A DNA stretch of 48,622 nucleotides from Shigella phage vB_Shig_1KOFFS (PV615260); one strand, 5' to 3'; counted from the first letter of the stretch, positions 19 to 47,399 are shown. The notes: generated by a model not told the origin, from the sequence alone. Numbers and translations: made by a program.

Positions 19-92
19 ACAGCACTAATTGCTAAATAATGCCCGCCGCGAGCGGGTATTATTACCCCATCAACCAATCAGGAGCTAACGCC
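19..92 (+). promoter_or_regulatory. Conserved promoter-like cassette (copy 1): CAGCAC-N5-TGCTAAA box, 22-bp GC hairpin spacer, TATTAT
   Basis: Dyad-like box followed by hairpin gcccgccgcgagcggg, -10-like TATTAT, then RBS GGAG and ATG at 93. Confidence 0.5.
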
Positions 93-6822: not shown

Positions 6823-7005
6823 TTATTTTCTTTCTCCCATCTCGATATACAGGTTAACCAGATCCAGAAAGTCAGCTTTATTTCTGCAACTCAATTTAAA
6901 GCCAACGTGCGACTCAATTTTATTTTGCATCGCAGCCAGTGTTGCGCCGCCATTATTCATCCTGAGAACTTCGCGGCATACTTCGGCGAGTTTTTGAGAT
7001 ATCAT
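6823..7005 (-). CDS. hypothetical protein (60 aa)
   Basis: Small ORF whose ATG overlaps the upstream stop. Confidence 0.4.
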   Translation of the reverse strand: MISQKLAEVCREVLRMNNGGATLAAMQNKIESHVGFKLSCRNKADFLDLVNLYIEMGERK

Positions 7006-7205
7006 TTTTCAATCACCCTTATTTTGATTGTTTCGCAGGCGCTTTCTATTTCGCTGATAATTCGATTCACCCTTAAATCAATCATTGTTTTATGATGGTA
7101 AATGTCAACAATGCCGACAACCGCTAACACCATGATCGAAAAGATGAGCGCACCAACCCCGTGCATGGAAAAGAGTGTGGCCATTACTGCGATCGTGAAT
7201 TTCAT
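7002..7205 (-). CDS. small membrane protein (67 aa)
   Basis: Mostly hydrophobic product (MKFTIAVMATLFSMHGVGALIFSIMVLAVVGIV); ATG at 7205 preceded by GGAG within a regulatory cassette. Confidence 0.5.
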   Translation of the reverse strand: MKFTIAVMATLFSMHGVGALIFSIMVLAVVGIVDIYHHKTMIDLRVNRIISEIESACETIKIRVIEK

Positions 7206-7280
7206 TTTGGTTTTCTCCGTTGCGTTTCTATGGGGTAATGCTACCCGACTTTCGCCGGGTAGTTTTAGCAATTCGTGCTA
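7206..7280 (-). promoter_or_regulatory. Conserved promoter-like cassette (copy on - strand)
   Basis: Reverse complement reads TAGCACGAATTGCTAAAAC, then hairpin tacccggcgaaagtcgggta, then CCCCATAGAAAC, RBS and ATG; the TAG is the stop of the upstream gene. Confidence 0.5.
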
Positions 7281-7970
7281 TTCTAGATAATTCGCCTGGA
7301 ACACGGCGCGGGCAAAACCTCGCGGAGTAATGGAGCGCAGCATTTTAGTCCTTTCTGACCTTCCGCCTAAAAACTTCCAGGCCCAAAAGAAATTCACGCC
7401 TTCCACTCCATCCGGCGGAGGGAGCCGTTTCGGTTCGACAAAACCGTTTCCGTGCCATATGCACGTTTTCTTCGTGTAATTGTCACAGTTGGGCATTTTT
7501 GGATGCCACACAGGTTCGTTTGGAGAAACATAGCCGCCGAAGTCGCGCGGGTGAAAATAGAAGTCAGGCTTTCGCCATAGTGACGACAATTTTCCAACCG
7601 GGTTTTCGACCATCCAGGGGCAACCATACTTATTGCCTAATTGCTCGACCATCTTCGCATCCCCTGCTGCGGATAATACGTCATTATCTTCCCTTACGTG
7701 CTTGATTCCGCTATGCGCTAACAGCGTGCATGACGGGAAGGCAAAAATGAAGTCGGGATCTGGAATGCCGAGAATCGATCGCTTCACGTCAAAATCCTTG
7801 TCGATCCAAATGTTAACATACTGGATATTGGGGTGAACCATTCTAATGCTGTATTCTCCGTGGTCGCCGGAGTCGGCATTGAAACAATACACCTTGCATC
7901 CCTTGATGGCCCACGGCAGGCCCATGATGCCGGAGCCGTCGAACATGCAGTAAATAACCTTGTCTTTCAT
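7278..7970 (-). CDS. Short C5-cytosine methyltransferase-like protein (230 aa)
   Basis: Motif I-like FDGSGIMG, motif IV-like FPSC and motif VI-like MVENPVG in canonical order; too short to hold a normal target recognition domain. Confidence 0.45.
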   Translation of the reverse strand: MKDKVIYCMFDGSGIMGLPWAIKGCKVYCFNADSGDHGEYSIRMVHPNIQYVNIWIDKDFDVKRSILGIPDPDFIFAFPSCTLLAHSGIKHVREDNDVLSAAGDAKMVEQLGNKYGCPWMVENPVGKLSSLWRKPDFYFHPRDFGGYVSPNEPVWHPKMPNCDNYTKKTCIWHGNGFVEPKRLPPPDGVEGVNFFWAWKFLGGRSERTKMLRSITPRGFARAVFQANYLE

Positions 7971-8193
7971 ACTTTACACGCCCCAATGAACATTCTTTTC
8001 GATTCCAGCGTCAGCGTGACGCCATCCAGGGAGGACTGAATGAGGCGACTGCCAGGAACCGTCCCGATGATGTAGCGGCCTTTCGACTTCGTGATCGTGA
8101 TCTGAGTGAAGCCGGAGGCGCGTTTCATGCGGAGAACGACGCGGCCATGCGCGTTCAGGACGGAGAGAATGTAATCAGTCTTCGGATGGTTCA
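7967..8193 (-). CDS. hypothetical protein (about 75 aa)
   Basis: ATG at 8193 preceded by AAGGAG; ORF-track N-terminal extension lacks an RBS. Confidence 0.45.
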
Positions 8194-8265
8194 TTGTGTA
8201 GCTCCTTCGTTTGTTGGTGTGGGACAGTATGCCACTATCCAGCCATGTTGTTTTAGCAAAACGTG

Positions 8266-8643
8266 CTATGCCGGAACGCAGGTCGCGTAATCTTGGCTGA
8301 TGTAGATCGTGCGCTGAACGCGAGGTTCGAGATCTCCGAGTTCCTGGATGGTAACATCGTTGCTTCCTACCCGGCACGGAACCGATCCAAAGATAAACTC
8401 GCTAGTCTGCTTGTCGTTGATTTGCCATACATTACCGCCTTCCTTTTTGACAACCAGGAAAGGCGCACTGTCTGCACTGAACTCTTCCGGGCCACGACCG
8501 TAGTAATGCGTGATCGCAGCTTTGGCCGCAGCGCTGAAGGCATCGGTAACGTCATTGGTCGCCTTGTCGCGGATGGCCTTGATACGTTCTTCAGGCGATC
8601 CGATGATGTAGGAAAAGCTGTTCGAAATGGTAACTGTTCGCAT
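8266..8643 (-). CDS. hypothetical protein (125 aa)
   Basis: ORF with RBS GAGGT before ATG at 8643. Confidence 0.5.
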   Translation of the reverse strand: MRTVTISNSFSYIIGSPEERIKAIRDKATNDVTDAFSAAAKAAITHYYGRGPEEFSADSAPFLVVKKEGGNVWQINDKQTSEFIFGSVPCRVGSNDVTIQELGDLEPRVQRTIYISQDYATCVPA

Positions 8644-8882
8644 TATATTTTAACCTCGTTTTGGTGGATGAAGTCGGCGACGTAATGGCATTCGATCGGA
8701 TTCTCGATACCCGCCAGCACCTCGCACAACCCGTTATTCAGTAGCTGGCAATGCTGGCACTCCGCGCCGCCAACACTGGCAATGACAATGGCGATCCCGT
8801 TGCATGAACCGCCGAACATTCGATGAGGGAAGGGGTAAGCATCGCAGGTGCAAACCACCTCCCCGGCTCGCAGTTTCCTCAT
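8643..8882 (-). CDS. Cys-rich small protein (79 aa), possible zinc-binding
   Basis: Seven cysteines including CTC and CQHC clusters; ATG at 8882 overlaps upstream stop. Confidence 0.45.
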   Translation of the reverse strand: MRKLRAGEVVCTCDAYPFPHRMFGGSCNGIAIVIASVGGAECQHCQLLNNGLCEVLAGIENPIECHYVADFIHQNEVKI

Positions 8883-9073
8883 ACCTGACCCTTCTCGATG
8901 CAGAAAACCCAATCACGAGCGTCAACCGCAAAGCGTGCAACGCCGTCGAGCACCACGAAGACAGTAAACCAGTTGACGCCGCGACCCTTCTCGATATCGG
9001 TTACGGTACGGAACAGATCGCTTGCGCCATATTGAATTTTATCCCCGACGACTACATCCGCAAATGCTTTCAT
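8879..9073 (-). CDS. hypothetical protein (64 aa)
   Basis: ORF directly downstream of a regulatory cassette, RBS AGGAG. Confidence 0.5.
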   Translation of the reverse strand: MKAFADVVVGDKIQYGASDLFRTVTDIEKGRGVNWFTVFVVLDGVARFAVDARDWVFCIEKGQV

Positions 9074-9148
9074 GGTTAATCTCCTGACTGGTTTCGATGG
9101 GGTAACTATACCAGGCCTTTCGGCCCGGCGTTTAGCAATTCGTGCTTA
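9074..9148 (-). promoter_or_regulatory. Conserved promoter-like cassette (copy on - strand)
   Basis: Reverse complement reads TAAGCACGAATTGCTAAACG, hairpin ccgggccgaaaggcctgg, extended -10-like TGGTATAGT, then CCCCATCGAAAC. Confidence 0.5.
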
Positions 9149-9427
9149 TTTCACTGCTTTCTTCGCTGCCTTGTACGCCTCTTTGAAAGCCGGAACATCT
9201 TCGACCGGAATCCAGAAGCCGGAGCCATAGCCATCATCGTAGCAGGGGCATTGGTCGCAGTAGTCGCCCCAGGTTTTCTCTTCGCCGCCAACAGAGAAGC
9301 CAGTGGCCATTTCGCATAACGCCTCCTCAACCGCCTCGATCTTGTCGGCGTCGCTATCCATGATAACGAAGTTCCACTTGCCGTTATACTCGCTGCCAAG
9401 GTTGATTGATTCGCGTTGAAGTTTCAT
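9146..9427 (-). CDS. acidic small protein (93 aa), first gene of leftward operon
   Basis: Asp/Glu-rich composition with CDQCPC cluster. Confidence 0.5.
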   Translation of the reverse strand: MKLQRESINLGSEYNGKWNFVIMDSDADKIEAVEEALCEMATGFSVGGEEKTWGDYCDQCPCYDDGYGSGFWIPVEDVPAFKEAYKAAKKAVK

Positions 9428-9785
9428 AGCTTTAGACCCTTTGGCTCAATTCGTTTCGTTGAAGTCATCATAGCAAAGTCGATCGGGTGGCTTTTGACAA
9501 AAAATGCTATTCCTGCGATTGCTGATTATTCCACCGATTCGGAATAGTGGAATAGATGGTGATTGCACCTGATTCCCTGGTGATTAGTTTTGACGAATCA
9601 TGATTGCTTTTGATTGTTTCATTTTGCGCAATGACTTGGTGGAGTGTTTCATGATTTGCAACGAATTGCATAAATGTATGCACCATGCACGCAATTTGCC
9701 GATCGAAGCTGGCAGAACTGGAGTTGTGTTTCACCAACATTTACGCCGTGTGGGAGTGTGGGGGAGGGATAATCTTACCTAAAAA

Positions 9786-9897
9786 TTGCGCAAAAAGCGA
9801 CCAATATAAGCCCATATATAGATAGTAAGTATATGATAAATAATAATATTATTATTATTACTCTCTATCTTTATATATGTTTGGTAAGATTTCTCAG
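9786..9897. repeat. Inverted repeat copy A (about 110 bp, 47-bp AT-rich core at 9818-9864)
   Basis: Reverse-complement match to 42604-42715; the core atagatagtaagtatatgataaataa(t/c)aatattattattattactct differs at one position. Confidence 0.85.
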
Positions 9898-10014
9898 GGG
9901 AGGTTATGGATTCCTCTTGCGCAAGCCATAATTTTTAGATGTTCCGCCGCGAAAAAATGTATATATGGATATATGGGGGATGACAGCAAATCTTCCCAAA
10001 CACGCGCAAATCCT

Positions 10015-10043
10015 TTGACACCAAGGCTTGCGGCCAGTATTAT
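10015..10043 (+). promoter_or_regulatory. Sigma70 consensus-like promoter for the rightward early operon
   Basis: TTGACA at 10015-10020, 17-bp spacer, TATTAT at 10038-10043, about 50 bp upstream of ATG 10091. Confidence 0.6.
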
Positions 10044-10090
10044 CACCTTCCGAAACATTACCAAACGCCGTAAGTGTGGGGGAAACACAA

Positions 10091-10669
10091 ATGCAATACA
10101 AAGGCTATGAGTTCGAAGAAGTCGATGTGTCCGAGTGGATGCAGTACGACGCAGAAAAGCAGGCCGCGTACCATGAATGGCTGCAATCCATCACGTTTGG
10201 TGACACCACCAGGCCAGCAGGGCGGAGCCAGGAAGCCACTAAACCTGAAGGCACATTCACTGGCAACCGCTCTTCCGAGATCCGGCGCATGTTCCTGGAT
10301 GGCGGGCGGCGTATCCAGATGACGGCGGAGGAGTTCGCGGAGAAGTTCGGCGTTCATCCGGTCGACAACCATTTCCGCAGGCCGTTGCTGAAACTCCTGG
10401 AGCCGGGCGAGGTGTTGCGCGTGAGCCTGGGGGCGGGGTTAATCTCCGTCTTTACCGAGTTCGACGCAATGACTAGCTCAAACCTGGAGGTTGAGGCATA
10501 CAGGCGGCAGGGCGCTACCTCTGAGCGGGAAAGGATTAAGGGTTTAGTGGCCGCTCTTGCCGTAGACTTTGCCGGGGATGCTCTGGCCGGGATTTACAAG
10601 GCGAACTTGTTCGCGGCTATCGATCTTGGGTTGACCGCCAGCGATATCAGCCAGCACGGCAAGCAATAG
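10091..10669 (+). CDS. hypothetical early protein (192 aa)
   Basis: ATG at 10091 preceded by GGGGGA; ORF-track extension to 10028 would overlap the promoter. Confidence 0.55.
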   Translation: MQYKGYEFEEVDVSEWMQYDAEKQAAYHEWLQSITFGDTTRPAGRSQEATKPEGTFTGNRSSEIRRMFLDGGRRIQMTAEEFAEKFGVHPVDNHFRRPLLKLLEPGEVLRVSLGAGLISVFTEFDAMTSSNLEVEAYRRQGATSERERIKGLVAALAVDFAGDALAGIYKANLFAAIDLGLTASDISQHGKQ

Positions 10670-10741
10670 CACTTTTTGTTAAAACGCGATCGGGGTGGCT
10701 TGCTATAGTAACCCCATCGAAACGAACAACGGAGCACCACA
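10667..10741 (+). promoter_or_regulatory. Conserved promoter-like cassette
   Basis: TAGCACTTTTTGTTAAAAC, hairpin GGGGTggcttgctatagtaACCCC containing TGcTATAGT, then CCCCATCGAAAC and RBS GGAG. Confidence 0.55.
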
Positions 10742-11236
10742 ATGAAATCTCGCGAATACCTAAACACCCTTAATGGCCTTATCTACTGGCTGGAAGATGA
10801 CGCAGTGATGATGCGCAAGCGCGAAGGCAATATTGTGAAGAAGTCGAATATGGCAGCGGCGATCTTCTTTGCGATGGTCGGCAACGATACACTTCTGCTT
10901 GTCGAGGCGGAGCCGGAGCAAAAGAGCATGACCATGAACGAATTCTCTAACTTCCTGGCTGGCATCGACAAGAGCACCACGACTGCAACCGCACAGACGG
11001 CCATTCAGGGCGGAGCCACCCACATTGCCATCGACGGTAACGGCGACGTCTTCGCATTCAAGATGCGCCCGCGCCCCTGCCTGCCGGATGACGACGACGC
11101 GAATGACTACCTGGGCGAATGGCTTCGCGGGTCTGAGCAGTACGGCCACATTGCGCGAACAGTCTGCTTCCTTGGCAACACTGGCCGCGAGCACCGCAAC
11201 TGGCTGGAACTCTGCTTCCAGATCCCACAGCAATAG
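10742..11236 (+). CDS. hypothetical early protein (164 aa)
   Basis: ORF downstream of cassette; contains an acidic DDDDAND stretch. Confidence 0.55.
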   Translation: MKSREYLNTLNGLIYWLEDDAVMMRKREGNIVKKSNMAAAIFFAMVGNDTLLLVEAEPEQKSMTMNEFSNFLAGIDKSTTTATAQTAIQGGATHIAIDGNGDVFAFKMRPRPCLPDDDDANDYLGEWLRGSEQYGHIARTVCFLGNTGREHRNWLELCFQIPQQ

Positions 11237-11304
11237 CACTTTTTGCTAAAACACGATCGGGGTAACGCGGTATTATTACCCCATCGAAACAGAGGAGCAA
11301 AAAC
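11234..11304 (+). promoter_or_regulatory. Conserved promoter-like cassette
   Basis: TAGCACTTTTTGCTAAAAC, hairpin GGGGTAAcgcggtatTATTACCCC, CCCCATCGAAAC, RBS GAGGAG. Confidence 0.55.
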
Positions 11305-11517
11305 ATGATTGGCAACCACAACAACGAACTGAACGCAGCAGCACACCGTCGCGCAGTCGAGCAGAACTTCAACGCGCTTAAAGCAGCCTGCGATGAGATG
11401 AAAGCAATGCTTGAACTGCCGTCATGGGATCCCCAACTCGAAGACTACTATGACGGCCTCCGCGTCAAGCGTGACGATATCATCAACCGCCTGCGCCTGG
11501 CTGGAATGTTCCTGTAA
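11305..11517 (+). CDS. hypothetical early protein (70 aa)
   Basis: ORF downstream of cassette. Confidence 0.5.
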   Translation: MIGNHNNELNAAAHRRAVEQNFNALKAACDEMKAMLELPSWDPQLEDYYDGLRVKRDDIINRLRLAGMFL

Positions 11518-11527
11518 GGAGAACGCA

Positions 11528-11848
11528 ATGATTCACGAAGTTAAATCCGGCGAGCAAGTAGTGGCCACCATCACGCAGCGCCACGTTGTAGCCTTCCAGA
11601 TTAACATCCCTGGCACGTTCGATATGCAGTCGCTTGACGTGCCAGTTTGGGCCAACACGGTTGCCATTGATGCCGACGGCTCGATTTGGGCCTATGAGTC
11701 GACCGTTGAAAATGTTCGCCTGCTGAGTTACTCGCCTGATTCATGGGTGGATAAGGGGCCGGGCGGAAACAAAATGGTTCAGGTGGGCGAAATGGCTCGT
11801 TTCCCTGATTGGGCAAAATCGAAGATTGACCTTCGCGGCCTGAAATAG
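11528..11848 (+). CDS. hypothetical early protein (106 aa)
   Basis: ATG at 11528 preceded by GGAG. Confidence 0.5.
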   Translation: MIHEVKSGEQVVATITQRHVVAFQINIPGTFDMQSLDVPVWANTVAIDADGSIWAYESTVENVRLLSYSPDSWVDKGPGGNKMVQVGEMARFPDWAKSKIDLRGLK

Positions 11849-11934
11849 CACGCATTGCTAAACGCCAGGTCAGTGGATCGGGCATAATTATCACGAAGTC
11901 GATTAACGACCAAATTATGCAAGGAGACAGGATA
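11845..11934 (+). promoter_or_regulatory. Conserved promoter-like cassette
   Basis: TAGCACGCATTGCTAAAC, 22 bp, CATAAT, then RBS AGGAG before ATG 11935. Confidence 0.5.
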
Positions 11935-12192
11935 ATGCAGCAATTCAAATCTCGCGGCAGGGTATACAGCCTGCCAGATACCGCAACTCATGCCGCGCCA
12001 GGCGTATGCGTCGGCCTTTACTTCATGGATTGCGGCAAATGGTTCTTCATTGGCGACCTGGTGACGGATGATGTTAAGCCGCTACTTTGCGGCAAACATC
12101 GCGGATTCTTCGATCACGATATCGTGGAGCTGAAGCCGAAGCGCAATCCGTTTGGTTTCTGGAACAAAATCAAAGTGGCGATTTTCAAATGA
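11935..12192 (+). CDS. hypothetical early protein (85 aa)
   Basis: ATG at 11935 with RBS AAGGAG. Confidence 0.5.
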   Translation: MQQFKSRGRVYSLPDTATHAAPGVCVGLYFMDCGKWFFIGDLVTDDVKPLLCGKHRGFFDHDIVELKPKRNPFGFWNKIKVAIFK

Positions 12193-12386
12193 ACCAATTC
12201 GAATTCCTGGCGCGGGCGCACCGTGCGCTTGCAATGTACGCCTTCAGCAAGAACATGAAGATTATCAGTATTGAGGTTGAGTTCAACAATATCAGCATTT
12301 CCGGCTATGTTGGCGGCTCGTACCACGTTACAAAATTCAGCTTCCCATCGCTGGCCAGCCTGGAGCGTGAGGCGCTCGGTTTCTGA
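12189..12386 (+). CDS. hypothetical early protein (65 aa)
   Basis: ATG overlaps upstream stop. Confidence 0.45.
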   Translation: MNQFEFLARAHRALAMYAFSKNMKIISIEVEFNNISISGYVGGSYHVTKFSFPSLASLEREALGF

Positions 12387-12459
12387 ATAGCACTTTTTGC
12401 TAAACGCCCGGTCAGGAGATCGGGCATAATGGCCATACACCAAACAACGGAGATTAACC
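12387..12459 (+). promoter_or_regulatory. Conserved promoter-like cassette
   Basis: TAGCACTTTTTGCTAAAC directly after stop TGA, 22 bp, CATAAT, RBS GGAG. Confidence 0.5.
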
Positions 12460-12786
12460 ATGATTCGCACTACCAGGCCGCTACCCAATAACCTTTACGC
12501 CACGATTGGGATTCGCGCGGTGATACTGATTCACGTCAACGAAGTTGGCAACGTGGCTGTTTTGTGGTTTGAGCGCCACTCAAGCGGGGTTGGCCTGAGC
12601 ATTGAAAGAGTCGGGCGCTTTGACGGCAGATCACGAACTCATTCTCATTGGGTTGATGGCTCCTGCTGCTGGACGCACGTTAAGCACGCCGAGAACTTCG
12701 ACGCCAAATCACTGAGCGACGACGACGCCTGGAAGATGGTAACAGATCTCTTTGGTTATGATTCCTGCATGGAGGTAGTAGGATGA
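12460..12786 (+). CDS. hypothetical early protein (108 aa)
   Basis: ORF downstream of cassette. Confidence 0.5.
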   Translation: MIRTTRPLPNNLYATIGIRAVILIHVNEVGNVAVLWFERHSSGVGLSIERVGRFDGRSRTHSHWVDGSCCWTHVKHAENFDAKSLSDDDAWKMVTDLFGYDSCMEVVG

Positions 12787-13085
12787 TACGTTTATCAGAC
12801 TTCGATCGCCACTGCTTAACCGGGCAATTTGGCGAAAAGCCAGTGATGTGCAAGATCTCGAAGGTTAAGGGCGACCCCGTCGAGAAGGTCAATACGCTTA
12901 AAGGCCTGGCAATGCGCAACCGACTTTACATCCAGGTTCGCGGCGGACTGTTCGCAATGCAGGTTCATTTTTCGCATGGGACGTGGTTCTACACTGGCGG
13001 AGACGGGGTTGGCCCATCGCCGAAAAGGGTTATGCTGCGTGAGATAATCGAACGCGGCTACGTTTGGACTAACGGGATCTACTAA
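12783..13085 (+). CDS. hypothetical early protein (100 aa)
   Basis: RBS GGAGG; start overlaps upstream stop. Confidence 0.5.
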   Translation: MIRLSDFDRHCLTGQFGEKPVMCKISKVKGDPVEKVNTLKGLAMRNRLYIQVRGGLFAMQVHFSHGTWFYTGGDGVGPSPKRVMLREIIERGYVWTNGIY

Positions 13086-13330
13086 TGGAAACAGTAACAG
13101 TGATTTGCACCCATGCGGGTTACGGGCCACTTATTCCGCTGTTCACGGTGGGTAAGGAGTATCAAGCCAGGTTCGGCCCCGGCCTTGATGAAGTCTGGAT
13201 TTTGCAGGACGACAAGAAAACAACGGAGTTGGGAGAAAACTGGTTAGCGTGCCGTATGCCGGACGAAAAGATAGCGATGTTTCTTAACAGACCATATGAA
13301 AACAACGTTATATTTGAGGTGAAAGTATGA
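13085..13330 (+). CDS. hypothetical early protein (81 aa)
   Basis: ATG overlaps upstream stop (TAATG). Confidence 0.5.
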   Translation: METVTVICTHAGYGPLIPLFTVGKEYQARFGPGLDEVWILQDDKKTTELGENWLACRMPDEKIAMFLNRPYENNVIFEVKV

Positions 13331-13512
13331 AAGTAAGCAAAAAGAAACTCGCGCTGTATTGGGCCTTCTTCTTGGTTGGCCTGGCGCTGCATGATAATGT
13401 AGACTGGCATCCGGTCGGCATGATTTGCATCATCATCGGGTTATGCCGACTGTCAGAGATTGACGGGTTCCGCCGTGGATATAGGGCAGCGTTCAGCGGC
13501 GAAAAAAAATAG
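13327..13512 (+). CDS. small membrane protein (61 aa)
   Basis: Two hydrophobic segments (LALYWAFFLVGLAL and VGMICIIIGL). Confidence 0.45.
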   Translation: MKVSKKKLALYWAFFLVGLALHDNVDWHPVGMICIIIGLCRLSEIDGFRRGYRAAFSGEKK

Positions 13513-13591
13513 CACTTTTTGTTAAAACTGCCGTAACGTCATTTGATAAAGTGGCGTTACTGAAGTGAACAATCCAATCAGGAGCAACGCA
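13510..13591 (+). promoter_or_regulatory. Conserved promoter-like cassette (variant hairpin)
   Basis: TAGCACTTTTTGTTAAAAC, hairpin CGTAACG..CGTTAC, TGATAAAGT, RBS AGGAG. Confidence 0.45.
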
Positions 13592-13810
13592 ATGAACGAC
13601 AATTTAATCGCACTGCTGGAAGAACTGAATTCCTACGGCTGTGCATACATCGAGCTTTCGAGCGAGCAGGTTATTGAAGTCGCAATCGACGATGACGCCG
13701 GGTTCACCAGATTAAGGGTGGCGGCAGGGGCCGAAGAGGAATTCGAGGACTGCGGCATCCGTGAAGTAACTAACCTTCTCGAAGTTCACCAGGTGAAGGA
13801 GATCCGCTAA
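13592..13810 (+). CDS. hypothetical early protein (72 aa)
   Basis: ATG at 13592 after RBS CAGGAG. Confidence 0.5.
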   Translation: MNDNLIALLEELNSYGCAYIELSSEQVIEVAIDDDAGFTRLRVAAGAEEEFEDCGIREVTNLLEVHQVKEIR

Positions 13811-14298
13811 TGAACACCGTCAAACTTATGGTTGTCAACGTGGCCCGCGAACGTGAACGCCACCTTATCGGCTGCGTATTCGATGCCGTCGAGGTTCGCG
13901 ATCCGCTCGGAATGGCTCGCGTAATCAATGGCGGATACCTTAACGAATTCATCATCAACCCGCTTGATACTGACGAAGACTTGACCATCCGTGTTGGTGG
14001 CGAGCCGGAAAACGCGCTTTTCCACCTGCGGAAAGTATCGAAGGCGTCGCAGCGCAAGTTGCTGGTTCGCGCACTGAAGCGCATTGCGAAGGAGCGCGGT
14101 TACACCGACGCATACATCCGCAAGTTCGGCACGTTCGCTGGCGTCGGAGATTGGGCGCGATCCTGGGCCGACTTATACTTCGATAAATCCGGCAAATTCT
14201 GTTCCGCGCATACGGACTGGCTGCATGGAACCGAACACGATCCAGTTAGCGGCCACGAGTGGTACGAATTCATTGAGGATGGATTAGACGCCCTTTGA
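13810..14298 (+). CDS. hypothetical early protein (162 aa)
   Basis: ORF whose start overlaps upstream stop. Confidence 0.55.
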   Translation: MNTVKLMVVNVARERERHLIGCVFDAVEVRDPLGMARVINGGYLNEFIINPLDTDEDLTIRVGGEPENALFHLRKVSKASQRKLLVRALKRIAKERGYTDAYIRKFGTFAGVGDWARSWADLYFDKSGKFCSAHTDWLHGTEHDPVSGHEWYEFIEDGLDAL

Positions 14299-14373
14299 TA
14301 GCACGAATTGCTAAAACGAACGTCCGGGGATGGTGCATACTATCCCCACACCAACGAACAAAGGAACTCACAC
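14299..14373 (+). promoter_or_regulatory. Conserved promoter-like cassette
   Basis: TAGCACGAATTGCTAAAAC, hairpin GGGGAtggtgcatactATCCCC, RBS AAGGAA. Confidence 0.5.
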
Positions 14374-14976
14374 ATGAAAAGTCAGAAAATTACCCTGATC
14401 CCGTCCGTCGATTCCGTGGTTAATACTTACGCGAAATTCACCAAAGGCAAGCGCTATACCGCAACCGCATTTACCAAATGTTCAGGCGAAATGCTGTACA
14501 AGGTCAGCGATGACTACGGGCGCGAGTATCACGTAAACCCAATATCTTCGCAATATCTTGGTGGCCATCGCTTCGATATCGAGTATCCGATCGAGGATTG
14601 CAGCAAGCGCGAGTCGCTCACCATCAACGCGGCAACCATCGGGGACGGGTTCATTAGCCGTGCCTGCATCGTTGACCTGATCCCGTCCGACAATCACGCC
14701 AAAGACGACGCCGACCCGCTGTTAAAGGCAGTTGTTCGCGCCGGAATCGGCTGGGCGTTAAGTGATGCGTCGTGCGAATCATTCATGCGTGAACCGTTCT
14801 CACGAATCGCGGAGCTTGAAAAGCAGGTTGCGTTCCTGACTGGTGAACTTCAGGCGGCTATCGCCACGATCGAGAAGGTTCGGGAAATCATGCGCACCGA
14901 ACCTGGCTATGACGTTGAAGATCACGCGCGAGTTTTGCGCATGATGGCCGACGCCTTCGCAAAACTCCAGCAATAG
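14374..14976 (+). CDS. hypothetical early protein (200 aa)
   Basis: ATG at 14374; C-terminal region looks coiled-coil-like (ELEKQVAFLTGELQAAIATIEKVREIM). Confidence 0.55.
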   Translation: MKSQKITLIPSVDSVVNTYAKFTKGKRYTATAFTKCSGEMLYKVSDDYGREYHVNPISSQYLGGHRFDIEYPIEDCSKRESLTINAATIGDGFISRACIVDLIPSDNHAKDDADPLLKAVVRAGIGWALSDASCESFMREPFSRIAELEKQVAFLTGELQAAIATIEKVREIMRTEPGYDVEDHARVLRMMADAFAKLQQ

Positions 14977-15041
14977 CACGAACCACAAACACTAACCGGG
15001 TTTGCTGCATGGCTACCCCGCCAAAGACAAGGAAAAACATC
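14975..15041 (+). promoter_or_regulatory. Degenerate copy of the promoter-like cassette
   Basis: Starts TAGCACGAA and contains GGCTACCCC but lacks the TGCTAAA half. Confidence 0.3.
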
Positions 15042-15233
15042 ATGATTTACGCAATTATTGCCCTGGTGGTTCTTATTCTGGCCCTGTATGCGTGCGGCTG
15101 TTTCCTCATGCGGGCCTTCCTGAAATCTGCGGATTCTACCGACAAAGACGATCTTTATCCTGTGTTGTGCTGGCCATGGATTACACTTTCCTCCGTTGGC
15201 AGCGTGATCATTTCCCGCAATTTTAAATGGTGA
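15042..15233 (+). CDS. small membrane protein (63 aa)
   Basis: N-terminal hydrophobic helix IYAIIALVVLILALYACGCFL; RBS AAGGAAAAA. Confidence 0.5.
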   Translation: MIYAIIALVVLILALYACGCFLMRAFLKSADSTDKDDLYPVLCWPWITLSSVGSVIISRNFKW

Positions 15234-15269
15234 GATGGCGTTTGTGTTCCAAAGTGGATAGCCAGCAAA

Positions 15270-15343
15270 TAGCACGAATTGCTAAAACCGATCAGGGGTA
15301 AGCTGGTATAGTTACCCCATCGAAACGAAACGGAGTTACAGCA
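15270..15343 (+). promoter_or_regulatory. Conserved promoter-like cassette
   Basis: TAGCACGAATTGCTAAAAC, hairpin GGGGTAAgctggtatagTTACCCC with TGgTATAGT, CCCCATCGAAAC, RBS GGAG. Confidence 0.55.
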
Positions 15344-15556
15344 ATGAAAATCAAAATTACCAAAATCGACACTCTTAACGGCGACGGCTCAATTACCCTG
15401 GAAGAATGCGGCCTCAAAATCGGCGAAGTTCTTGAGGTCGACGGCCACTTCAACGACGGCTCCTACTGTGTGATCGCTCCGCGCAATAGCGAGTTTATCC
15501 AGGCTGGTGACAATATCAGCGTGAGCGCAGACGAATGCGAGGTTGTGGAAGAATGA
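15344..15556 (+). CDS. hypothetical early protein (70 aa)
   Basis: ORF downstream of cassette. Confidence 0.5.
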   Translation: MKIKITKIDTLNGDGSITLEECGLKIGEVLEVDGHFNDGSYCVIAPRNSEFIQAGDNISVSADECEVVEE

Positions 15557-16128
15557 GCAACAAAATTTGGGTACTGACCTACACTATCGGAACCAACGAG
15601 GGGCGCAAATCGCGCCGCCTCATCTGCGACACCAAAGAGCAGGCGATTATGCAGCAAACCGTTCTTGGTGGCGAGGTTGTCGAATATTTCCGCAAGCCTG
15701 AAGCGTTCAAGGTGAACTGGCCGGAAGGCATGGATATCAACGGAGCGTTAGCGAGCCTGCGTGAGATGCAGCACAACCCGAAGACGTGGAGCGACTTTCA
15801 ATGCCTGCGTGCGGAGCCGGAAGTGAAGGCCGACCCGTTCACCAATATTCGGGCGCAGCACGCGGAATGGTCGGATCGCCAGTTCGGTAACGTCGGGCCA
15901 GTAGGGCCACTCAAACACCTGGCGAAAGAGGCGATCGAGGCTGCCGAAGCGCCGGATGACATTAGCGAGTTCGCCGATATCCTCATGTTGGTATGGGACG
16001 CAATGCGCCGCGCCGGATTCAGCGATGAGCAGTTGGCTGAAGCGGTGGCGGAAAAGCTGGAACGGAACAAGCGTCGGGCGTGGGGTGAGGTCAAAGATGG
16101 CGAACCTTGCCACCACGTAAAAAATTAA
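15553..16128 (+). CDS. MazG-like nucleotide pyrophosphohydrolase domain protein (tentative)
   Basis: Glu/Asp-rich helical segment KEAIEAAEAPDDISEFADILMLVWDAMRRAG resembles the MazG EExxE/D metal-binding helices; from memory only. Confidence 0.4.
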   Translation: MSNKIWVLTYTIGTNEGRKSRRLICDTKEQAIMQQTVLGGEVVEYFRKPEAFKVNWPEGMDINGALASLREMQHNPKTWSDFQCLRAEPEVKADPFTNIRAQHAEWSDRQFGNVGPVGPLKHLAKEAIEAAEAPDDISEFADILMLVWDAMRRAGFSDEQLAEAVAEKLERNKRRAWGEVKDGEPCHHVKN

Positions 16129-16197
16129 CGAAATCTAATACCGTTTAAAGCGCCTGTAAGCCATTCTGGCGGGCGCAAATTTAAGGAGTGCGATTGT

Positions 16198-16434
16198 ATG
16201 CCTGAATACTCAAAAGTCGAAGATATGCCGATTGGCGCAACCATTACGGGAATTCGCATTGATGAATGGGTAGATGCCATCACCCCACTGGCGTTTCCGG
16301 TTACGCAGGTGGAGACTGACAGCGAAAAAGGGTTTATCTTCATCTACAAAAACCTCAATAGTCCGCTGCGTGTTGAAGTGTTCATTGCTCGCGGAACCTG
16401 GGTAGAATGGGAGAAGGCCAAATGTTCGGACTGA
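16198..16434 (+). CDS. hypothetical early protein (78 aa)
   Basis: ORF with RBS AAGGAG. Confidence 0.5.
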   Translation: MPEYSKVEDMPIGATITGIRIDEWVDAITPLAFPVTQVETDSEKGFIFIYKNLNSPLRVEVFIARGTWVEWEKAKCSD

Positions 16435-16655
16435 ATGAAGCGCAGTACAACGCCGTGAAGCGCATAGCAAAGCAGATGGCCGCAGAAACAAAAGACGCCA
16501 TCAAGAAGGACAAGAAGACCTACGATCAGGTCGCCGCGAAGATGATCGATAAACATTGGGCGCAAATCAACACGCTGGTTACTCGCGGCCAGTTTATCTG
16601 GATAGCTGGCTACCTGGAAGGCCGATTCGGTCGCAGGGATGGCGAGTATGAATAA
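16422..16655 (+). CDS. hypothetical early protein (77 aa)
   Basis: ATG at 16422 overlapping the end of the upstream gene. Confidence 0.45.
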   Translation: MFGLNEAQYNAVKRIAKQMAAETKDAIKKDKKTYDQVAAKMIDKHWAQINTLVTRGQFIWIAGYLEGRFGRRDGEYE

Positions 16656-16783
16656 AAAACAGCCAAACGATTCAGTGACCTATTGACGCAATCGCGCTGA
16701 CCGTGTAACGTGAACCACGTAGACGCAAGAGGCGGTAAACATCCGCAAGTCTGGCCCCGCTTAGGGGCATTTACAAAGGGGTT

Positions 16784-16978
16784 ATGATGCAGTACAAAAT
16801 CATACTCACGGCAAGAAAAATGGGCGGCTTTTGCAAGTCCTGCATTCAAGAGTTCAGCATGACGATTGAGGCGAACGACGCCGCCGACGCGGTAGAGAAA
16901 GCAAAAAAGCAATCCGGCGTTAATCTGGATACTCATAAAATCAACATCAACTACATAAGGGAAGTCAATCAATGTTAA
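16784..16978 (+). CDS. hypothetical protein (64 aa)
   Basis: ORF with RBS AAGGGG. Confidence 0.4.
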   Translation: MMQYKIILTARKMGGFCKSCIQEFSMTIEANDAADAVEKAKKQSGVNLDTHKININYIREVNQC

Positions 16979-17235
16979 CTCTGATTATTGCACTGTTAAT
17001 GCTGTTCATAGGCTATCATGTTGGCGCGGCTCATCTTGTCGAGCGCCTTTCAAAGCGGGTACATGAAGGCACCTTTGCTGCCATGTTCTACAATAAGAAA
17101 ACAGCACGTTGGGAAAAAATTGGCGATCCGGATGGTATCGCAAAACGAATTGCTTTTTCGCCGCTTCCGTATGTTGACTGCGAGCCATTTGTTAAACTCC
17201 AGAAGACGCTGAATCGGCGAAACAAACTGATATGA
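16972..17235 (+). CDS. hypothetical membrane protein (87 aa)
   Basis: N-terminal hydrophobic helix LTLIIALLMLFIGYHVGAA. Confidence 0.45.
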   Translation: MLTLIIALLMLFIGYHVGAAHLVERLSKRVHEGTFAAMFYNKKTARWEKIGDPDGIAKRIAFSPLPYVDCEPFVKLQKTLNRRNKLI

Positions 17236-17242
17236 CAAAAGA

Positions 17243-17267
17243 ACCCGCTTCGGCGGGTTTTTTTATG
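17243..17267 (+). terminator. Rho-independent terminator ending the early operon
   Basis: Stem AACCCGC / GCGGGTT with loop ttcg, followed by T7. Confidence 0.8.
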
Positions 17268-17314
17268 CCCGCGATCTGATATACTCGCAAATCAACATAG
17301 AAGGAGGGTACAAA

Positions 17315-17839
17315 ATGTCTGAAGAACGTAGAAAACGCGTAACGAAATCGCACTTTGCAGGCAACTTTAAAGCGCTATATGAAAAGGAGTTCGGCGTGGT
17401 ACTAGGGCGCACGGCAGAGATGACGCCGGAACAATTTTTTGATATCGCAAAGCGTTACTTCCAGTGGGCCGAAGATAACGCAATCAAGGCTGCGGAAACG
17501 GCAACGTTTCAGGGAGACGTTAACGAGTGGGGAGTGAACAAGCCGCGCATTTTTACTCTCACAGGGTTAAGCCTGTTTTGCGGCGTGAACCAGTCAACGC
17601 TTGGGCGCTACCGTCACGATCCCAACTATGCTCCCGTCATGGAGTTCATCGACTCCGTAATTTATGAGCAGAAATTTCAGCTTGCTGCCGTCGGCATGAT
17701 TAACGCTTCTTTCGTCGGAAAAGAGATGGGGATCGATAAGCCGCCAGTGCTTAACATCGACGCTATCGCCGGGGATAAGAACGAGATCACCGAGGAGAAG
17801 TTAGAGAAGGCAGTGACCAATATTCTTGATAAGCTGTAA
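17315..17839 (+). CDS. Terminase small subunit
   Basis: 174-aa ORF immediately upstream of the large terminase, first gene after the early terminator; RBS AAGGAGGG. Confidence 0.6.
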   Translation: MSEERRKRVTKSHFAGNFKALYEKEFGVVLGRTAEMTPEQFFDIAKRYFQWAEDNAIKAAETATFQGDVNEWGVNKPRIFTLTGLSLFCGVNQSTLGRYRHDPNYAPVMEFIDSVIYEQKFQLAAVGMINASFVGKEMGIDKPPVLNIDAIAGDKNEITEEKLEKAVTNILDKL

Positions 17840-39997: not shown

Positions 39998-40053
39998 TTT
40001 AAAAGCCTCTTATGTTGGTTGAGTAACGCAGATAATAGCATCAATGAACAGAT

Positions 40054-43805: not shown

Positions 43806-43883
43806 GTCGTTACCTCCAAATAAAAAACGCCTACACGAGAATGATAACCCGGCAGGCGTTTAGTGTTTAGACAAATTGTGCTA
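43806..43883 (-). promoter_or_regulatory. Conserved promoter-like cassette (- strand) upstream of primase
   Basis: Reverse complement reads TAGCACAATTTGTCTAAAC, then hairpin and TATCAT-like element, then RBS. Confidence 0.45.
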
Positions 43884-44282
43884 TCGGACTACGCGGAGCA
43901 TTTCCCGGCGGTCGCATCGGCGCGTAACTGGCTTGCCGTTGCTGTCAAACCTTAAATCTGGTCGGCAGAATGAGGCGCGGAAACCTTTGCAATTGTTCCG
44001 GCGGTAGCTCTTGTGTACGAGATAAGCGCCATCGGCTGAGATCATGCCTCGCTTGCGCCACTGCTGAACGACCTGGATGCTAACCCCCAACTCTTTTGCC
44101 GTTCCAGCGATGCCACCGAAGGCATCAATAACAAGCTCCATCCGCGCAGTCAACCCGGCGCGAACCTCATCCTTCAGTACGTAGTAACCAGTCGGGCGTT
44201 TGCGCTTCTTCTTGTCCTTTCCGCGAGATGTTCCATTGTTGCCGTTCAAAGTTCGCTTGTCTACCTTTGCCATTTGTTCCAT
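43881..44282 (-). CDS. HTH DNA-binding protein (Cro/YdaS-like), candidate transcription regulator
   Basis: Segment GTAKELGVSIQVVQQWRKRGMIS resembles Cro/YdaS-type helix-turn-helix; basic N-terminus. Confidence 0.55.
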   Translation of the reverse strand: MEQMAKVDKRTLNGNNGTSRGKDKKKRKRPTGYYVLKDEVRAGLTARMELVIDAFGGIAGTAKELGVSIQVVQQWRKRGMISADGAYLVHKSYRRNNCKGFRASFCRPDLRFDSNGKPVTRRCDRREMLRVVR

Positions 44283-44295
44283 AATTTAGCCCTCA

Positions 44296-44373
44296 TAGCA
44301 CTTTTTGTTAAACATGATAAAATATGCTATGTATTATACACGCAACCATGCTAATGACAAATTAGGATTGCAC
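44296..44373 (+). promoter_or_regulatory. Conserved promoter-like cassette
   Basis: TAGCACTTTTTGTTAAAC followed about 22 bp later by TATTAT, with an extended -10-like TGATAAAAT nearer the box. Confidence 0.45.
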
Positions 44374-46922: not shown

Positions 46923-47326
46923 TTACAGATAAAGGGGATTACCTCGAATATTACGGCGGGCCTGTAAAGGCTTGCCCGCTTGAGAAAATCGACCAGATGA
47001 ACAGCGTTTCGTGGCTGCGGCATGAATATCCTGATTATCTGTTTTGGCATACGGTTAACGAAGGGAGCAAGCACAAAGCGAGCGCGGTTATCGATCATCA
47101 AATGGGGTTGCTGAAGGGTGTTAGCGACATTCTGATCCTGATTGGGTTCGGTGGCAAATACCCGTTCGCAGCCATTGAGCTAAAGCGCCAGGGTAAGGCG
47201 CAGGCGTCGCCAGTGAGCAAGGAGCAAAGGGAATTCCTTGCTGCCGTCCGGCGTCGCGGCGGATTCGCCGCCGTGGCCTATGGCTTCGAGCAATTCAAGA
47301 TCGCTTTCTGCGATGCCATAAAATAG
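46919..47326 (+). CDS. VRR-NUC domain nuclease
   Basis: PD-(D/E)xK-like segments GVSDILIL and AIELK; GTG start after RBS GAGGAG overlapping helicase stop. Confidence 0.55.
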   Translation: MITDKGDYLEYYGGPVKACPLEKIDQMNSVSWLRHEYPDYLFWHTVNEGSKHKASAVIDHQMGLLKGVSDILILIGFGGKYPFAAIELKRQGKAQASPVSKEQREFLAAVRRRGGFAAVAYGFEQFKIAFCDAIK

Positions 47327-47399
47327 CACTTTTTGTTAAAACCGCCCGGCGAAAGCCGGGTATCATTTCCACATCGAAACAAAGAACGGAGTGTTGAAA
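47324..47399 (+). promoter_or_regulatory. Conserved promoter-like cassette
   Basis: TAGCACTTTTTGTTAAAAC, hairpin CCCGGCgaaaGCCGGG, TATCAT, CATCGAAAC, RBS GGAG. Confidence 0.5.

What the first reader, a model, noticed from the sequence alone, without database searches (positions are those of the whole stretch)
10667..15343. Clustered family of promoter-like cassettes with a dyad box and a fixed 22-bp hairpin spacer
Eight intergenic gaps in the early operon carry the same ~75-bp unit: dyad TAGCA-N5-TGCTA (often starting on the upstream stop codon), a GC hairpin, a -10-like hexamer (TATAGT, TATTAT, CATAAT), then CCCCATCGAAAC and the RBS. The TTGCTA-to-hexamer spacing is 22 bp in nearly every copy, not the sigma70 17 bp, which puts the dyad centre near -42 like a class II activator site. 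This fits a middle-promoter class needing a phage-encoded factor, which I cannot name from memory.
Basis: partly seen in the sequence, partly recalled or inferred. Interest (0 to 1): 0.7.

Follow-up and report, generated by a model that had tools for sequence, protein, structure and literature searches.

The report
Phage promoter cassettes carrying host marbox sites
A T1-like Klebsiella phage repeats a stop-to-start gene-punctuation cassette whose upstream "dyad" exactly matches the binding site of the host stress regulators MarA/SoxS/Rob/RamA, placed as in a known activator-dependent promoter, so much phage early transcription may depend on those host regulators.

Summary
The window is a Webervirus (T1-like Klebsiella phage). 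It carries about 16 cassettes on both strands, always co-oriented with genes, not 8. Their order is upstream stop codon, box, 22-nt spacer with hairpin, -10 hexamer (often TGn-extended), conserved C/A start site, short leader with Shine-Dalgarno sequence, ATG.

The same cassette, with exactly 22 nt of spacer, occurs 13-20 times per genome in T1, TLS and Rtp. The box and -10 change about 4-10 times less between orthologues than spacer and flanks.

The "dyad" is better read as a perfect marbox (published consensus GCANNWWNTGNNAAA: 13 exact hits against 0.84 expected). It lies forward, in place of a -35. Its GCAC sits 35 nt before the -10, the same distance to the base pair as in E. coli micF, the model class II MarA/SoxS/Rob/RamA promoter.

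No MarA-like protein is encoded by the phages. The phage regulator Pir is the main rival binder.

The hairpins vary in sequence and register and fold better on the sense strand. This suggests RNA 3' hairpins of read-through transcripts, as in T4-type PeSL cassettes. Insertion/deletion breakpoints fall in the cassettes.

Nothing here is experimentally tested. No prior description was found.

The parts
19..92 (+). Cassette. Marbox 19-38 (ACAGCACTAATTGCTAAATA), spacer hairpin CCCGC/GCGGG, -10 TATTAT 57-62, predicted +1 A69, ATG 93.
   Evidence: z -3.8
7206..7281 (-). Cassette. Marbox 7281-7262, GAAA-tetraloop hairpin in the spacer, -10 TAGCAT 7243-7238, predicted +1 A7231, ATG 7205.
   Evidence: z -4.9
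8195..8269 (-). Cassette. Marbox 8269-8250 (ATAGCACGTTTTGCTAAAAC) shares CACGTTTTGCTAAA 14/14 with the E. coli mar operon marbox. -10 CATACT 8231-8226 preceded by TG.
   Evidence: hairpin not significant (z -0.8)
9074..9148 (-). Cassette. Marbox 9148-9129, GAAA-loop hairpin with a G.U pair, TGn-extended -10 TATAGT 9110-9105, +1 A9098, then ATCGAAAC leader.
   Evidence: z -3.0
9428..9510 (-). First cassette of the leftward early operon. Marbox 9510-9491 with a micF-like B site (TGTCAAAA), TGn plus TATGAT 9472-9467, no hairpin.
   Evidence: z +0.7
10666..10741 (+). Cassette 1 of the finding. The TAG stop of the upstream ORF lies inside marbox 10666-10685. The GGGGT/ACCCC hairpin encloses TGn-TATAGT 10704-10709. 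+1 A10716, ATG 10742. It is also the breakpoint of a 0.6-1.1 kb insertion/deletion relative to 1KM2 and KpCol1.
   Evidence: z -3.3
11233..11304 (+). Cassette 2. Marbox 11233-11252; the hairpin GGGGTAA/TTACCCC encloses TATTAT 11271-11276; +1 A11283.
   Evidence: z -2.6
11845..11934 (+). Cassette 3. Box TAGCACGCATTGCTA (one departure from the 15-mer, C at a W position), -10 CATAAT 11883-11888, weak hairpin, longer leader.
   Evidence: z -0.9
12387..12459 (+). Cassette 4. Marbox 12387-12406, spacer hairpin CCCGGTC/GATCGGG with a G.U pair, -10 CATAAT 12425-12430.
   Evidence: z -3.5
13509..13591 (+). Cassette 5. Marbox 13509-13528; a 12-bp hairpin encloses TGA-TAAAGT 13547-13552.
   Evidence: z -4.8
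14298..14373 (+). Cassette 6. Marbox 14298-14317; the hairpin GGGGAT/ATCCCC encloses CATACT 14336-14341.
   Evidence: z -2.9
14973..15041 (+). Degenerate copy. It keeps TAGCACGAA but has lost the B site and the -10. It is probably a decayed cassette.
15269..15343 (+). Cassette 8. Marbox 15269-15288; the hairpin GGGGTAA/TTACCCC encloses TGG-TATAGT 15307-15312; +1 A15319; ATCGAAACGAAACGGAG leader. A gene-replacement breakpoint relative to KP36 starts at 15288.
   Evidence: z -2.9
43806..43884 (-). Cassette at the pir-to-primase junction. Variant box; the hairpin plus U-run is a true intrinsic terminator whose loop holds the -10 TATCAT. The same arrangement occurs in T1, TLS and Rtp.
   Evidence: z -4.4
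44295..44373 (+). Cassette in the divergent pir / HNH-helicase gap. The box lies 14 bp upstream of the pir ATG (on the opposite strand). The spacing to the -10 is 21, or 17 to TATGTA.
47323..47399 (+). Cassette upstream of the gene that precedes the methyltransferase. Marbox 47323-47342, GAAA-loop hairpin, -10 TATCAT 47361-47366. It corresponds in position to the cassette upstream of dam in T1.
   Evidence: z -3.5
43881..44282 (-). Homologue of T1 Pir (Orf23), a Cro/C2-like HTH regulator. It is the only phage-encoded candidate box binder conserved in all four lineages.
10015..10043 (+). Canonical sigma70 promoter TTGACA-17-TATTAT at the head of the rightward early operon, included for contrast. 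It has no marbox.

Best explanation
Each unit is a compact stop-and-restart cassette between small early or replication genes.

**Promoter part.** It works as a class II, activator-dependent sigma70 promoter.
- A consensus 20-bp marbox (A site GCAC at -47..-44, B site TG(C/T)TAAA at -39..-33) replaces the -35 hexamer.
- The marbox is forward-oriented and ends 18 bp before a -10 hexamer that often carries the extended TG.
- Transcription would start at a conserved C(-1)/A(+1), giving a 22-33 nt CA-rich leader with a Shine-Dalgarno sequence.
- The most likely binder is a monomeric host AraC/XylS regulator: Rob, MarA or SoxS, plus RamA in Klebsiella. It would contact alpha-CTD and sigma region 4, as in the micF complexes.

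**Hairpin part.** The hairpin lies in or around the spacer and the -10. It belongs to transcripts reading through from the upstream gene. There it would act as a 3' stabiliser, attenuator or terminator.

**Evolutionary role.** Because all copies share the box, they also serve as homology patches for inserting and deleting genes.

**Status of each step.**
- Shown: sequence match, geometry, conservation, hairpin statistics, breakpoints.
- Inferred: protein identity, start site, hairpin function.
For: **Marbox match**
- The published marbox 15-mer is gcannwwntgnnaaa (PMC12052159). The window has 13 exact matches against 0.84 expected. T1, TLS and Rtp have 20, 19 and 14 against about 1.
- The mar operon's own marbox shares CACGTTTTGCTAAA with cassette 8268(-).

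**Geometry**
- In micF, GCAC starts 35 nt before TAGAAT. The same distance holds in the cassettes.
- The literature defines class II as a forward marbox overlapping the -35, centred near -41/-41.5.
- The Rob-contacted bases -47G, -45A, -38G, -37T and -35/-34 A:T are the conserved cassette positions.

**Logo of 63 cassettes**
- Positions the search did not select follow the marbox: A-50 in 60/63, W at -42 in 61/63 and at -41 in 63/63, A-33 in 59/63.
- G-14 occurs in 52/63 and A+1 in 53/63.
- There is no -35.

**Conservation and context**
- Orthologue substitution rates: marbox 1.0%, -10 region 2.3%, spacer 7.6%, flanks 10-11%.
- T1 fragments carrying such cassettes (Pdam, Porf65) were used as promoter-GFP fusions in phage-free E. 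coli.
- The phages encode no MarA-like protein.

**Hairpins**
- Mean z is -3.4, and 79% of cassettes have z below -2. The official tool gives comparable values.
- The sense strand is more stable than the antisense in 47/63 cassettes, p = 3e-6, with more G.U pairs.

**Breakpoints**
- Insertion/deletion breakpoints lie in cassettes.
- The architecture equals that of PeSL cassettes.
Against: - There are no binding, transcription or 5'-end data for any cassette.
- A-48 and T-40 are conserved although the marbox consensus leaves them free. Together with the 5+5 dyad, this leaves room for a dimeric phage protein such as Pir, which all four lineages encode.
- MarA and SoxS are scarce in unstressed cells, and Rob is reported to be largely sequestered until induced. 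Dependence on these regulators seems risky for a lytic phage. Frequent TGn-extended -10 elements could make the promoters work without any activator.
- Most hairpins lack a U-tract, so they are not classical terminators.
- The logo set was chosen with a box pattern, which inflates conservation at the selected positions.
Confidence: 0.55

Rival explanations
1. The box is the operator of the phage regulator Pir (T1 Orf23 homologue, window 43881-44282 minus strand). Pir is a Cro/C2-like HTH dimer that would bind TAGCA-N5-TGCTA centred at -42. It would activate RNA polymerase as lambda cI does at PRM, and repress its own gene, where the box lies between the pir promoter and the pir ATG.
For: - Pir is a functional regulator of T1 promoters: it activates hol and dam and represses pir and recE.
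- It is conserved in all four lineages.
- It shows weak P22_Cro/YdaS HTH hits and an HHpred C2 note.
- The half-sites are 10 bp apart.
- The box sits 12-14 bp from the pir ATG in every lineage.
- dam has a cassette.
Against: - Response to Pir does not track the box. Porf65 has a perfect box but is Pir-independent. hol and recE respond to Pir but have no box within one mismatch.
- Conservation is asymmetric: C-44 pairs with T-40 rather than G. The flanks are AA upstream and AAA downstream, not complementary. Position -37 varies C/T while its symmetric partner G-47 never varies.
- All of these departures fit the marbox.
Confidence: 0.2
2. The cassettes are activator-independent extended -10 promoters. 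The box is conserved for another reason, such as a shared 'linker' that carries a stop codon and supplies homology for modular recombination, kept uniform by gene conversion.
For: - G-14 occurs in 52/63 cassettes and T-15 in 31/63.
- Breakpoints lie in the box.
- The TAG of the box is the stop codon in 31/63 cassettes.
- The cassette occurs next to unrelated genes in the T4-like phage Miro.
Against: - Recombination homology does not require a rigid 22-nt distance to the -10.
- It does not explain near-invariance of the same bases across four subfamilies whose spacers have fully diverged.
- It does not explain an exact match to an unrelated host consensus at the micF position.
- About half of the copies lack TG.
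Confidence: 0.12
3. The units are not promoters. They would be RNA-level punctuation only (terminators, processing or stabilising hairpins, and translation leaders) within long polycistronic transcripts that start at the few canonical promoters.
For: - The hairpins are significant and favour the sense strand.
- T1 annotators called several of them rho-independent terminators.
- The standard sigma70 scan finds only one strong promoter in 6500-17500.
Against: - The most conserved parts (box, -10, CA start) lie outside or only partly inside the hairpins, and they have promoter spacing.
- Three window cassettes have no significant hairpin but intact box and -10.
- No Rfam family matches.
Confidence: 0.06
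4. The cassettes are sigma54-type or T4 MotA-type promoters. TAGCAC-N3-TTGCT resembles TGGCAC-N5-TTGCW, and TTTGCTA resembles the MotA box.
For: Superficial sequence resemblance only. The consensus sequences are from established knowledge.
Against: - The sigma54 GG is AG here, and the two blocks are 2 bp too close.
- A sigma54 start would fall inside the spacer, far from the conserved -10.
- The MotA box sits at -30, about 12 bp from the -10. Here the TTGCT block lies at -40..-36.
Confidence: 0.02

Closest known systems
Class II MarA/SoxS/Rob/RamA-dependent promoters (E. coli and K. pneumoniae micF as the type case)
   Same: - Forward-oriented marbox with A site GCAC and B site (C/T)AAA.
- Exact match to the published 15-mer.
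- The marbox overlaps and replaces the -35.
- GCAC lies 35 nt before the -10, as in micF.
- The conserved bases are those contacted by Rob in the cryo-EM complex.
   Different: - The location is a virulent phage genome, at 13-20 copies per roughly 48 kb.
- The boxes are far closer to consensus than typical chromosomal marboxes.
- They are fused to a stop codon and a hairpin.
- Activator dependence is untested.
PeSL (promoter-early stem-loop) cassettes of T4-type phages RB49/phi1 (Arbiol et al. 2010, PMC2839356)
   Same: [quoted passage not shown]
- A promoter is combined with a stem-loop containing G-T pairs.
- The stem-loop lies between the upstream box and the -10, or overlaps the -10.
- GGGG...CCCC stems occur.
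- The cassettes are sites of insertion, deletion and replacement.
   Different: [quoted passage not shown] Here there is no -35, but a marbox 22 nt from the -10.
- The phage family differs (Drexlerviridae).
- Terminator activity and mini-circles were not tested here.
Lambda cI at PRM, and class II CRP promoters
   Same: The activator site is centred near -42, abuts or replaces the -35, and contacts sigma region 4.
   Different: Those activators are dimers on symmetric sites. The cassette box is conserved asymmetrically.
Rho-independent terminators as annotated in T1 (NC_005833 / AY216660)
   Same: Several annotated T1 'terminators' (for example 38973-39001, 39998-40024, 41980-42007) are the GC hairpins of cassettes.
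   Different: Most lack a U-tract. What follows the stem is the -10 hexamer. Only the pir-primase junction copy has a real U-run.

Membership tests
Class II marbox (MarA/SoxS/Rob/RamA) promoter | Sequence matches the marbox consensus (A site GCAC, B site YAAA, 7-nt gap; 15-mer GCANNWWNTGNNAAA) | tested here: met
   The window has 13 exact matches against 0.84 expected. T1, TLS and Rtp have 14-20. The consensus is taken from PMC12052159, PMC8811837 and PMC9638938.
Class II marbox (MarA/SoxS/Rob/RamA) promoter | Forward orientation, overlapping the -35, centred near -41 | tested here: met
   The orientation and the GCAC-to-(-10) distance (35 nt) equal those of micF. The centre of the 20-mer is -40.5 if +1 is the conserved A.
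Class II marbox (MarA/SoxS/Rob/RamA) promoter | Poor or absent -35 hexamer together with a usable -10 | tested here: met
   Positions -35..-30 read AAAACn. -10 positions A-11 and T-7 are 63/63 by selection, and T-12 is 51/63. The sigma70 scan misses every cassette.
Class II marbox (MarA/SoxS/Rob/RamA) promoter | Binding by, and transcriptional activation through, MarA, SoxS, Rob or RamA | not testable with these tools
   This needs EMSA or footprinting, in vitro transcription, and mutant hosts.
PeSL cassette (T4-type phages) | [quoted passage not shown] | tested here: met
   A stop codon lies at or within 13 nt of the box in 45/63 cassettes.
PeSL cassette (T4-type phages) | Promoter identical to the sigma70 consensus (-35 and -10) | tested here: not met
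   There is no -35 at 16-18 bp. The TTGYTA block is 22 nt from the -10.
PeSL cassette (T4-type phages) | Stable stem-loop at variable positions relative to the promoter boxes | tested here: met
   37 hairpins enclose or overlap the -10, 14 lie upstream of it, and 12 are weak.
PeSL cassette (T4-type phages) | Recombination between cassettes produces gene insertions and deletions | tested here: met
   The breakpoints relative to 1KM2 and KpCol1 overlap cassette 10665-10728. The replacement relative to KP36 starts at 15288. This rests on few cases.
Operator of a dimeric HTH regulator (Pir, Cro/C2-like) | Two-fold symmetric conservation of the site | tested here: inconclusive
   The 5-bp arms are symmetric, but the flanks, -44/-40 and -47/-37 are not. 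Response to Pir does not track the box.
Sigma54 promoter | GG at -24 and GC at -12, with TGGCAC-N5-TTGCW spacing | tested here: not met
   AG replaces GG, and N3 replaces N5. The consensus is from established knowledge.
Intrinsic (rho-independent) terminator | GC-rich hairpin immediately followed by a U-tract | tested here: not met
   No cassette hairpin on the sense strand passes the terminator scan in 6500-17500. Only 43883(-) has a U-run.

The most novel reading that the evidence does not exclude
T1-like phages (Drexlerviridae) have wired most of their non-late promoters to the host's antibiotic, oxidative-stress and bile regulators (MarA, SoxS, Rob, RamA) through consensus class II marboxes.

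Possible consequences:
- Phage gene expression would read the host's stress state.
- Hundreds of replicating genomes, each with 13-20 perfect marboxes, could titrate these regulators.
- The same cassettes would act as portable promoter/terminator modules that move ORFans within and between phage families, as seen in a T4-like Klebsiella phage.
Probability: 0.4. Interest if true: 0.85.

Novelty: new variant of a known kind. Interest (0 to 1): 0.7.

Why it matters
If host MarA/SoxS/Rob/RamA drive these promoters, several things follow.

- **Therapy.** The productivity of a very common group of therapeutic Klebsiella and E. coli phages would depend on regulators that are over-expressed in multidrug-resistant clinical strains (ramR, marR and soxR mutants). 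These regulators are also induced by salicylate, bile, redox drugs and some antibiotics. That gives a direct, testable mechanism for phage-antibiotic synergy or antagonism.
- **Annotation.** Standard sigma70 promoter predictors find almost no promoters in these genomes. Several annotated 'terminators' are actually parts of promoters.
- **Evolution.** The PeSL idea of mobile regulatory cassettes would extend to a second phage family.
- **Synthetic biology.** The cassettes offer a set of compact, insulated parts.

Tried and rejected
- **Standard sigma70 scan.** It misses all cassettes because of the 22-nt spacing. It finds only the canonical promoter at 10015.
- **Rfam.** No family matches.
- **My first box pattern.** It was off by one base and found nothing. 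It was corrected.
- **Sigma54 and MotA-box readings.** Both were rejected on spacing.
- **Phage-encoded MarA-like activator.** A profile of MarA, SoxS and the Rob N-terminus was searched against 2811 six-frame ORFs of five phage genomes. The best E-value was 0.04, so nothing was found.
- **Pfam on candidate regulators.** The 70-aa protein annotated 'transcriptional regulator' (11305-11517) has no Pfam hit and is Webervirus-specific. T1 Orf65 is not conserved across lineages.
- **Single fixed pairing register for the hairpin.** None was found. The hairpins are heterogeneous.
- **fumC as a second geometry check.** The marbox is visible, but the -10 is ambiguous without a mapped start site.
- **Literature.** No paper reports these sequences or links marboxes to phage promoters. 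The T1 and Rtp genome papers and Zafar 2011 are not held.
- **Miro flanking genes.** They are not homologous to Drexlerviridae ORFs.

Full report
**What the window is.** The region is 88-98% identical to several hundred Klebsiella phages of the genus Webervirus (Drexlerviridae, T1-like). The best match is vB_Kpn_1KM2. The finding lies in the rightward early operon of small hypothetical genes that precedes the terminase genes.

**Check of the observation.**
- All eight sites exist.
- Seven have TAGCA-N5-TG(C/T)TA followed by exactly 22 nt and then a -10-like hexamer. The copy at 14974 is decayed.
- The family is larger than reported. Further copies lie at 20, 44296 and 47324 on the plus strand. 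On the minus strand they lie at 7280, 8268, 9147, 9509 and 43883. Every copy points the same way as the neighbouring genes.
- Box plus fixed spacing plus nAnnnT gives 13 matches against 0.01 expected.
- CCCCATCGAAAC is exact in only three of the eight copies.

**A family-wide element.**
- The same box occurs in T1 (46 two-strand matches against 5.4 expected), in TLS and in Rtp. These are three other Drexlerviridae lineages with different G+C content and hosts.
- Over the four genomes, the best -10 hexamer lies exactly 22 nt after TTGYTA in 58 of 88 candidate boxes. Nearly all well-formed boxes show this spacing.
- A strict composite pattern hits IMG/VR contigs of 42-52 kb, with about 7-17 matches each.
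- Neither curated T1 record annotates these sites as promoters. Several of the GC hairpins are annotated as rho-independent terminators.

**Anatomy.** This comes from a logo of 63 cassettes, numbered with the -10 hexamer at -12..-7.
- Upstream part: A-51 and A-50, then T A G C A C at -49..-44, then n W W at -43..-41.
- Box continuation: T T G (C/T) T A A A at -40..-33, then A and c at -32 and -31.
- Spacer: -30..-16 shows no sequence conservation.
- -10 region: T-15 in 31/63 and G-14 in 52/63, then the hexamer.
- Start region: C-rich at -4..-1, A at +1 in 53/63, then TCGAAAC.
- A Shine-Dalgarno sequence follows, and the start codon lies 22-33 nt after +1 in most well-formed window copies.
- Positions that my search pattern did not constrain (-50, -42, -41, -33) are nevertheless conserved.
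- Between orthologous cassettes of four Weberviruses, substitutions run at 1.0% in the box and 2.3% in the -10 region. They run at 7.6% in the spacer and 10-11% in the flanks.

**What the box is.**
- The dyad is only 5+5 bp, and its surroundings are conserved asymmetrically.
[quoted passage not shown] The Grainger laboratory's consensus is gcannwwntgnnaaa (PMC12052159).
- Other papers describe CAC(G/T)-7N-AAA (PMC8811837), and an A site GCAC plus a B site CAAA (PMC9638938 and PMC9178005).
- The window has 13 exact matches to the 15-mer against 0.84 +/- 0.76 expected. All 13 are cassettes. T1, TLS and Rtp have 20, 19 and 14 against about 1.
- The one frequent variation in the box (C/T at -37) and the two 'flavours' of the centre (TTT or GAA) fall on positions that the consensus leaves free or requires only to be W.
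- The mar operon's own marbox, ATGCCACGTTTTGCTAAATC, shares 14 of 14 bases (CACGTTTTGCTAAA) with cassette 8268(-).

**Geometry.**
- In E. coli micF, the model class II promoter for SoxS, Rob and RamA, GCAC starts 35 nt before the -10 hexamer TAGAAT. The annotated 5' end lies 8 nt after it.
- In the cassettes GCAC also starts 35 nt before the hexamer.
- Class II is defined as a forward marbox overlapping the -35, centred near -41/-41.5.
- The bases Rob contacts in the cryo-EM complex (-47G, -45A, -38G, -37T, and the A:T pairs at -35/-34) are the conserved cassette bases at the same coordinates.
- In that complex Rob keeps sigma region 4 off the -35. This fits the lack of a -35 here.

**Whose protein binds?**
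- The five phage genomes encode nothing resembling MarA, SoxS or Rob.
[quoted passage not shown] K. pneumoniae has RamA, MarA and SoxS.
- The main rival is Pir, the T1 Orf23 regulator. It is Cro/C2-like, conserved in all four lineages, and activates hol and dam while repressing pir and recE in reporter assays (PMC6737242).
- The response to Pir does not follow the box. The orf65 promoter has a perfect cassette but is Pir-independent. hol and recE respond to Pir but have no box.
- I therefore favour a host regulator at about 0.55 and Pir at about 0.2.

**The hairpin.**
- Region -33..+8 folds far better than shuffled sequence. Mean z is -3.4, and 79% of cassettes have z below -2. Eleven of 14 window copies have z at or below -2.6 with dinucleotide shuffles.
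- Stem sequences and registers differ between copies. Thirty-seven enclose or overlap the -10, 14 lie in the spacer and 12 are weak. There is no fixed pairing register.
- The sense strand folds better than the antisense in 47 of 63 cassettes (p = 3e-6). It has more G.U pairs, and GNRA loops are seen in several copies.
- This points to an RNA structure in transcripts arriving from the upstream gene, because the predicted start lies at or beyond the 3' arm.
- Only the pir-primase copy has a U-run. For the rest I infer attenuation or 3'-end protection. This is not shown.

**Comparison with PeSL cassettes.**
- T4-type PeSLs run from stop codon to ATG. [quoted passage not shown] They mediate gene shuffling (PMC2839356).
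- The cassettes share all of this, including recombination. The 0.6-1.1 kb insertions in 1KM2 and KpCol1 are bounded by two cassette copies (window 10665-10728 aligns to both ends). A gene replacement relative to KP36 starts at 15288.
- They differ in having a marbox where PeSLs have a sigma70 -35.
- A full cassette, next to unrelated genes, also sits in the T4-like Klebsiella phage Miro.

**Novelty and verdict.**
- No paper in the searchable library reports these sequences or links marboxes with phage promoters. The T1 and Rtp genome papers could not be read.
- I rate this as a new variant of known kinds: class II marbox promoters fused into PeSL-like cassettes. All functional steps still need experimental test.

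Noticed in passing
window 9500-10045: A roughly 550-bp non-coding gap separates the divergent early operons. It has an AT-rich run (about 9800-9880) and a canonical sigma70 promoter, TTGACA-17-TATTAT, at 10015-10043 that has no marbox. The equivalent site is the only promoter annotated in KP36. The gap may hold a pac site or an origin.
   Followed up: partly
window 44283-44375; L006 (T1) 36432-36524: The box lies 12-14 bp upstream of the pir ATG on the opposite strand in the window, T1, TLS and Rtp. The -10 of the rightward (HNH/helicase) promoter and a TATAAT for pir overlap on opposite strands. The two promoters probably compete.
   Followed up: partly
window 43806-43884 (-); T1 35994(-), TLS 35239(-), Rtp 34830(-): At the pir-to-primase junction the cassette hairpin is followed by a U-run. 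This makes a true intrinsic terminator whose loop contains the -10 of the next promoter. The arrangement is conserved in all four lineages.
   Followed up: partly
L014 (Klebsiella phage Miro, Slopekvirus) 1505-1585 and 1150-1240: A T4-like 176-kb Klebsiella phage carries a complete cassette (box, 22 nt, TATAGT, TACCCCATCGAAAC) next to genes with no homologue in the Drexlerviridae genomes examined. A second copy has a 33-nt spacer (22+11) holding a larger terminator hairpin. The cassette appears to move between phage families.
   Followed up: partly
L006 (T1) 29930-30270, upstream of recE: There are repeated GTGTAACAG / TGTTACA motifs, including an inverted pair. They are possible Pir operators or replication iterons and are unrelated to the box.
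   Followed up: no
window 14973-15041: This is a decayed cassette. It keeps TAGCACGAA but has lost the B site and the -10. The start of the downstream gene is ambiguous (ATG 15009 without a Shine-Dalgarno sequence, or ATG 15042 with AAGGA).
   Followed up: partly
window 11258-11283 (-): The terminator scan flags the cassette-2 hairpin on the antisense strand. There the complement of the A-rich marbox supplies a T-run, so the cassettes might also stop antisense transcription.
   Followed up: no
window 44314 / 44374: The related record's HNH gene length implies a start at ATG 44314, inside the box. ATG 44374, with an AGGA Shine-Dalgarno sequence, fits the cassette better. This is a possible start-codon misannotation in relatives.
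   Followed up: no
window 15535-16128; 9146-9427; 8266-8643: Pfam hits among the cassette-driven genes: dATP/dGTP pyrophosphohydrolase (E = 3e-34), DUF5417 (E = 4e-47), and a weak match to the DNA mimic Ocr (E = 0.04).
   Followed up: no
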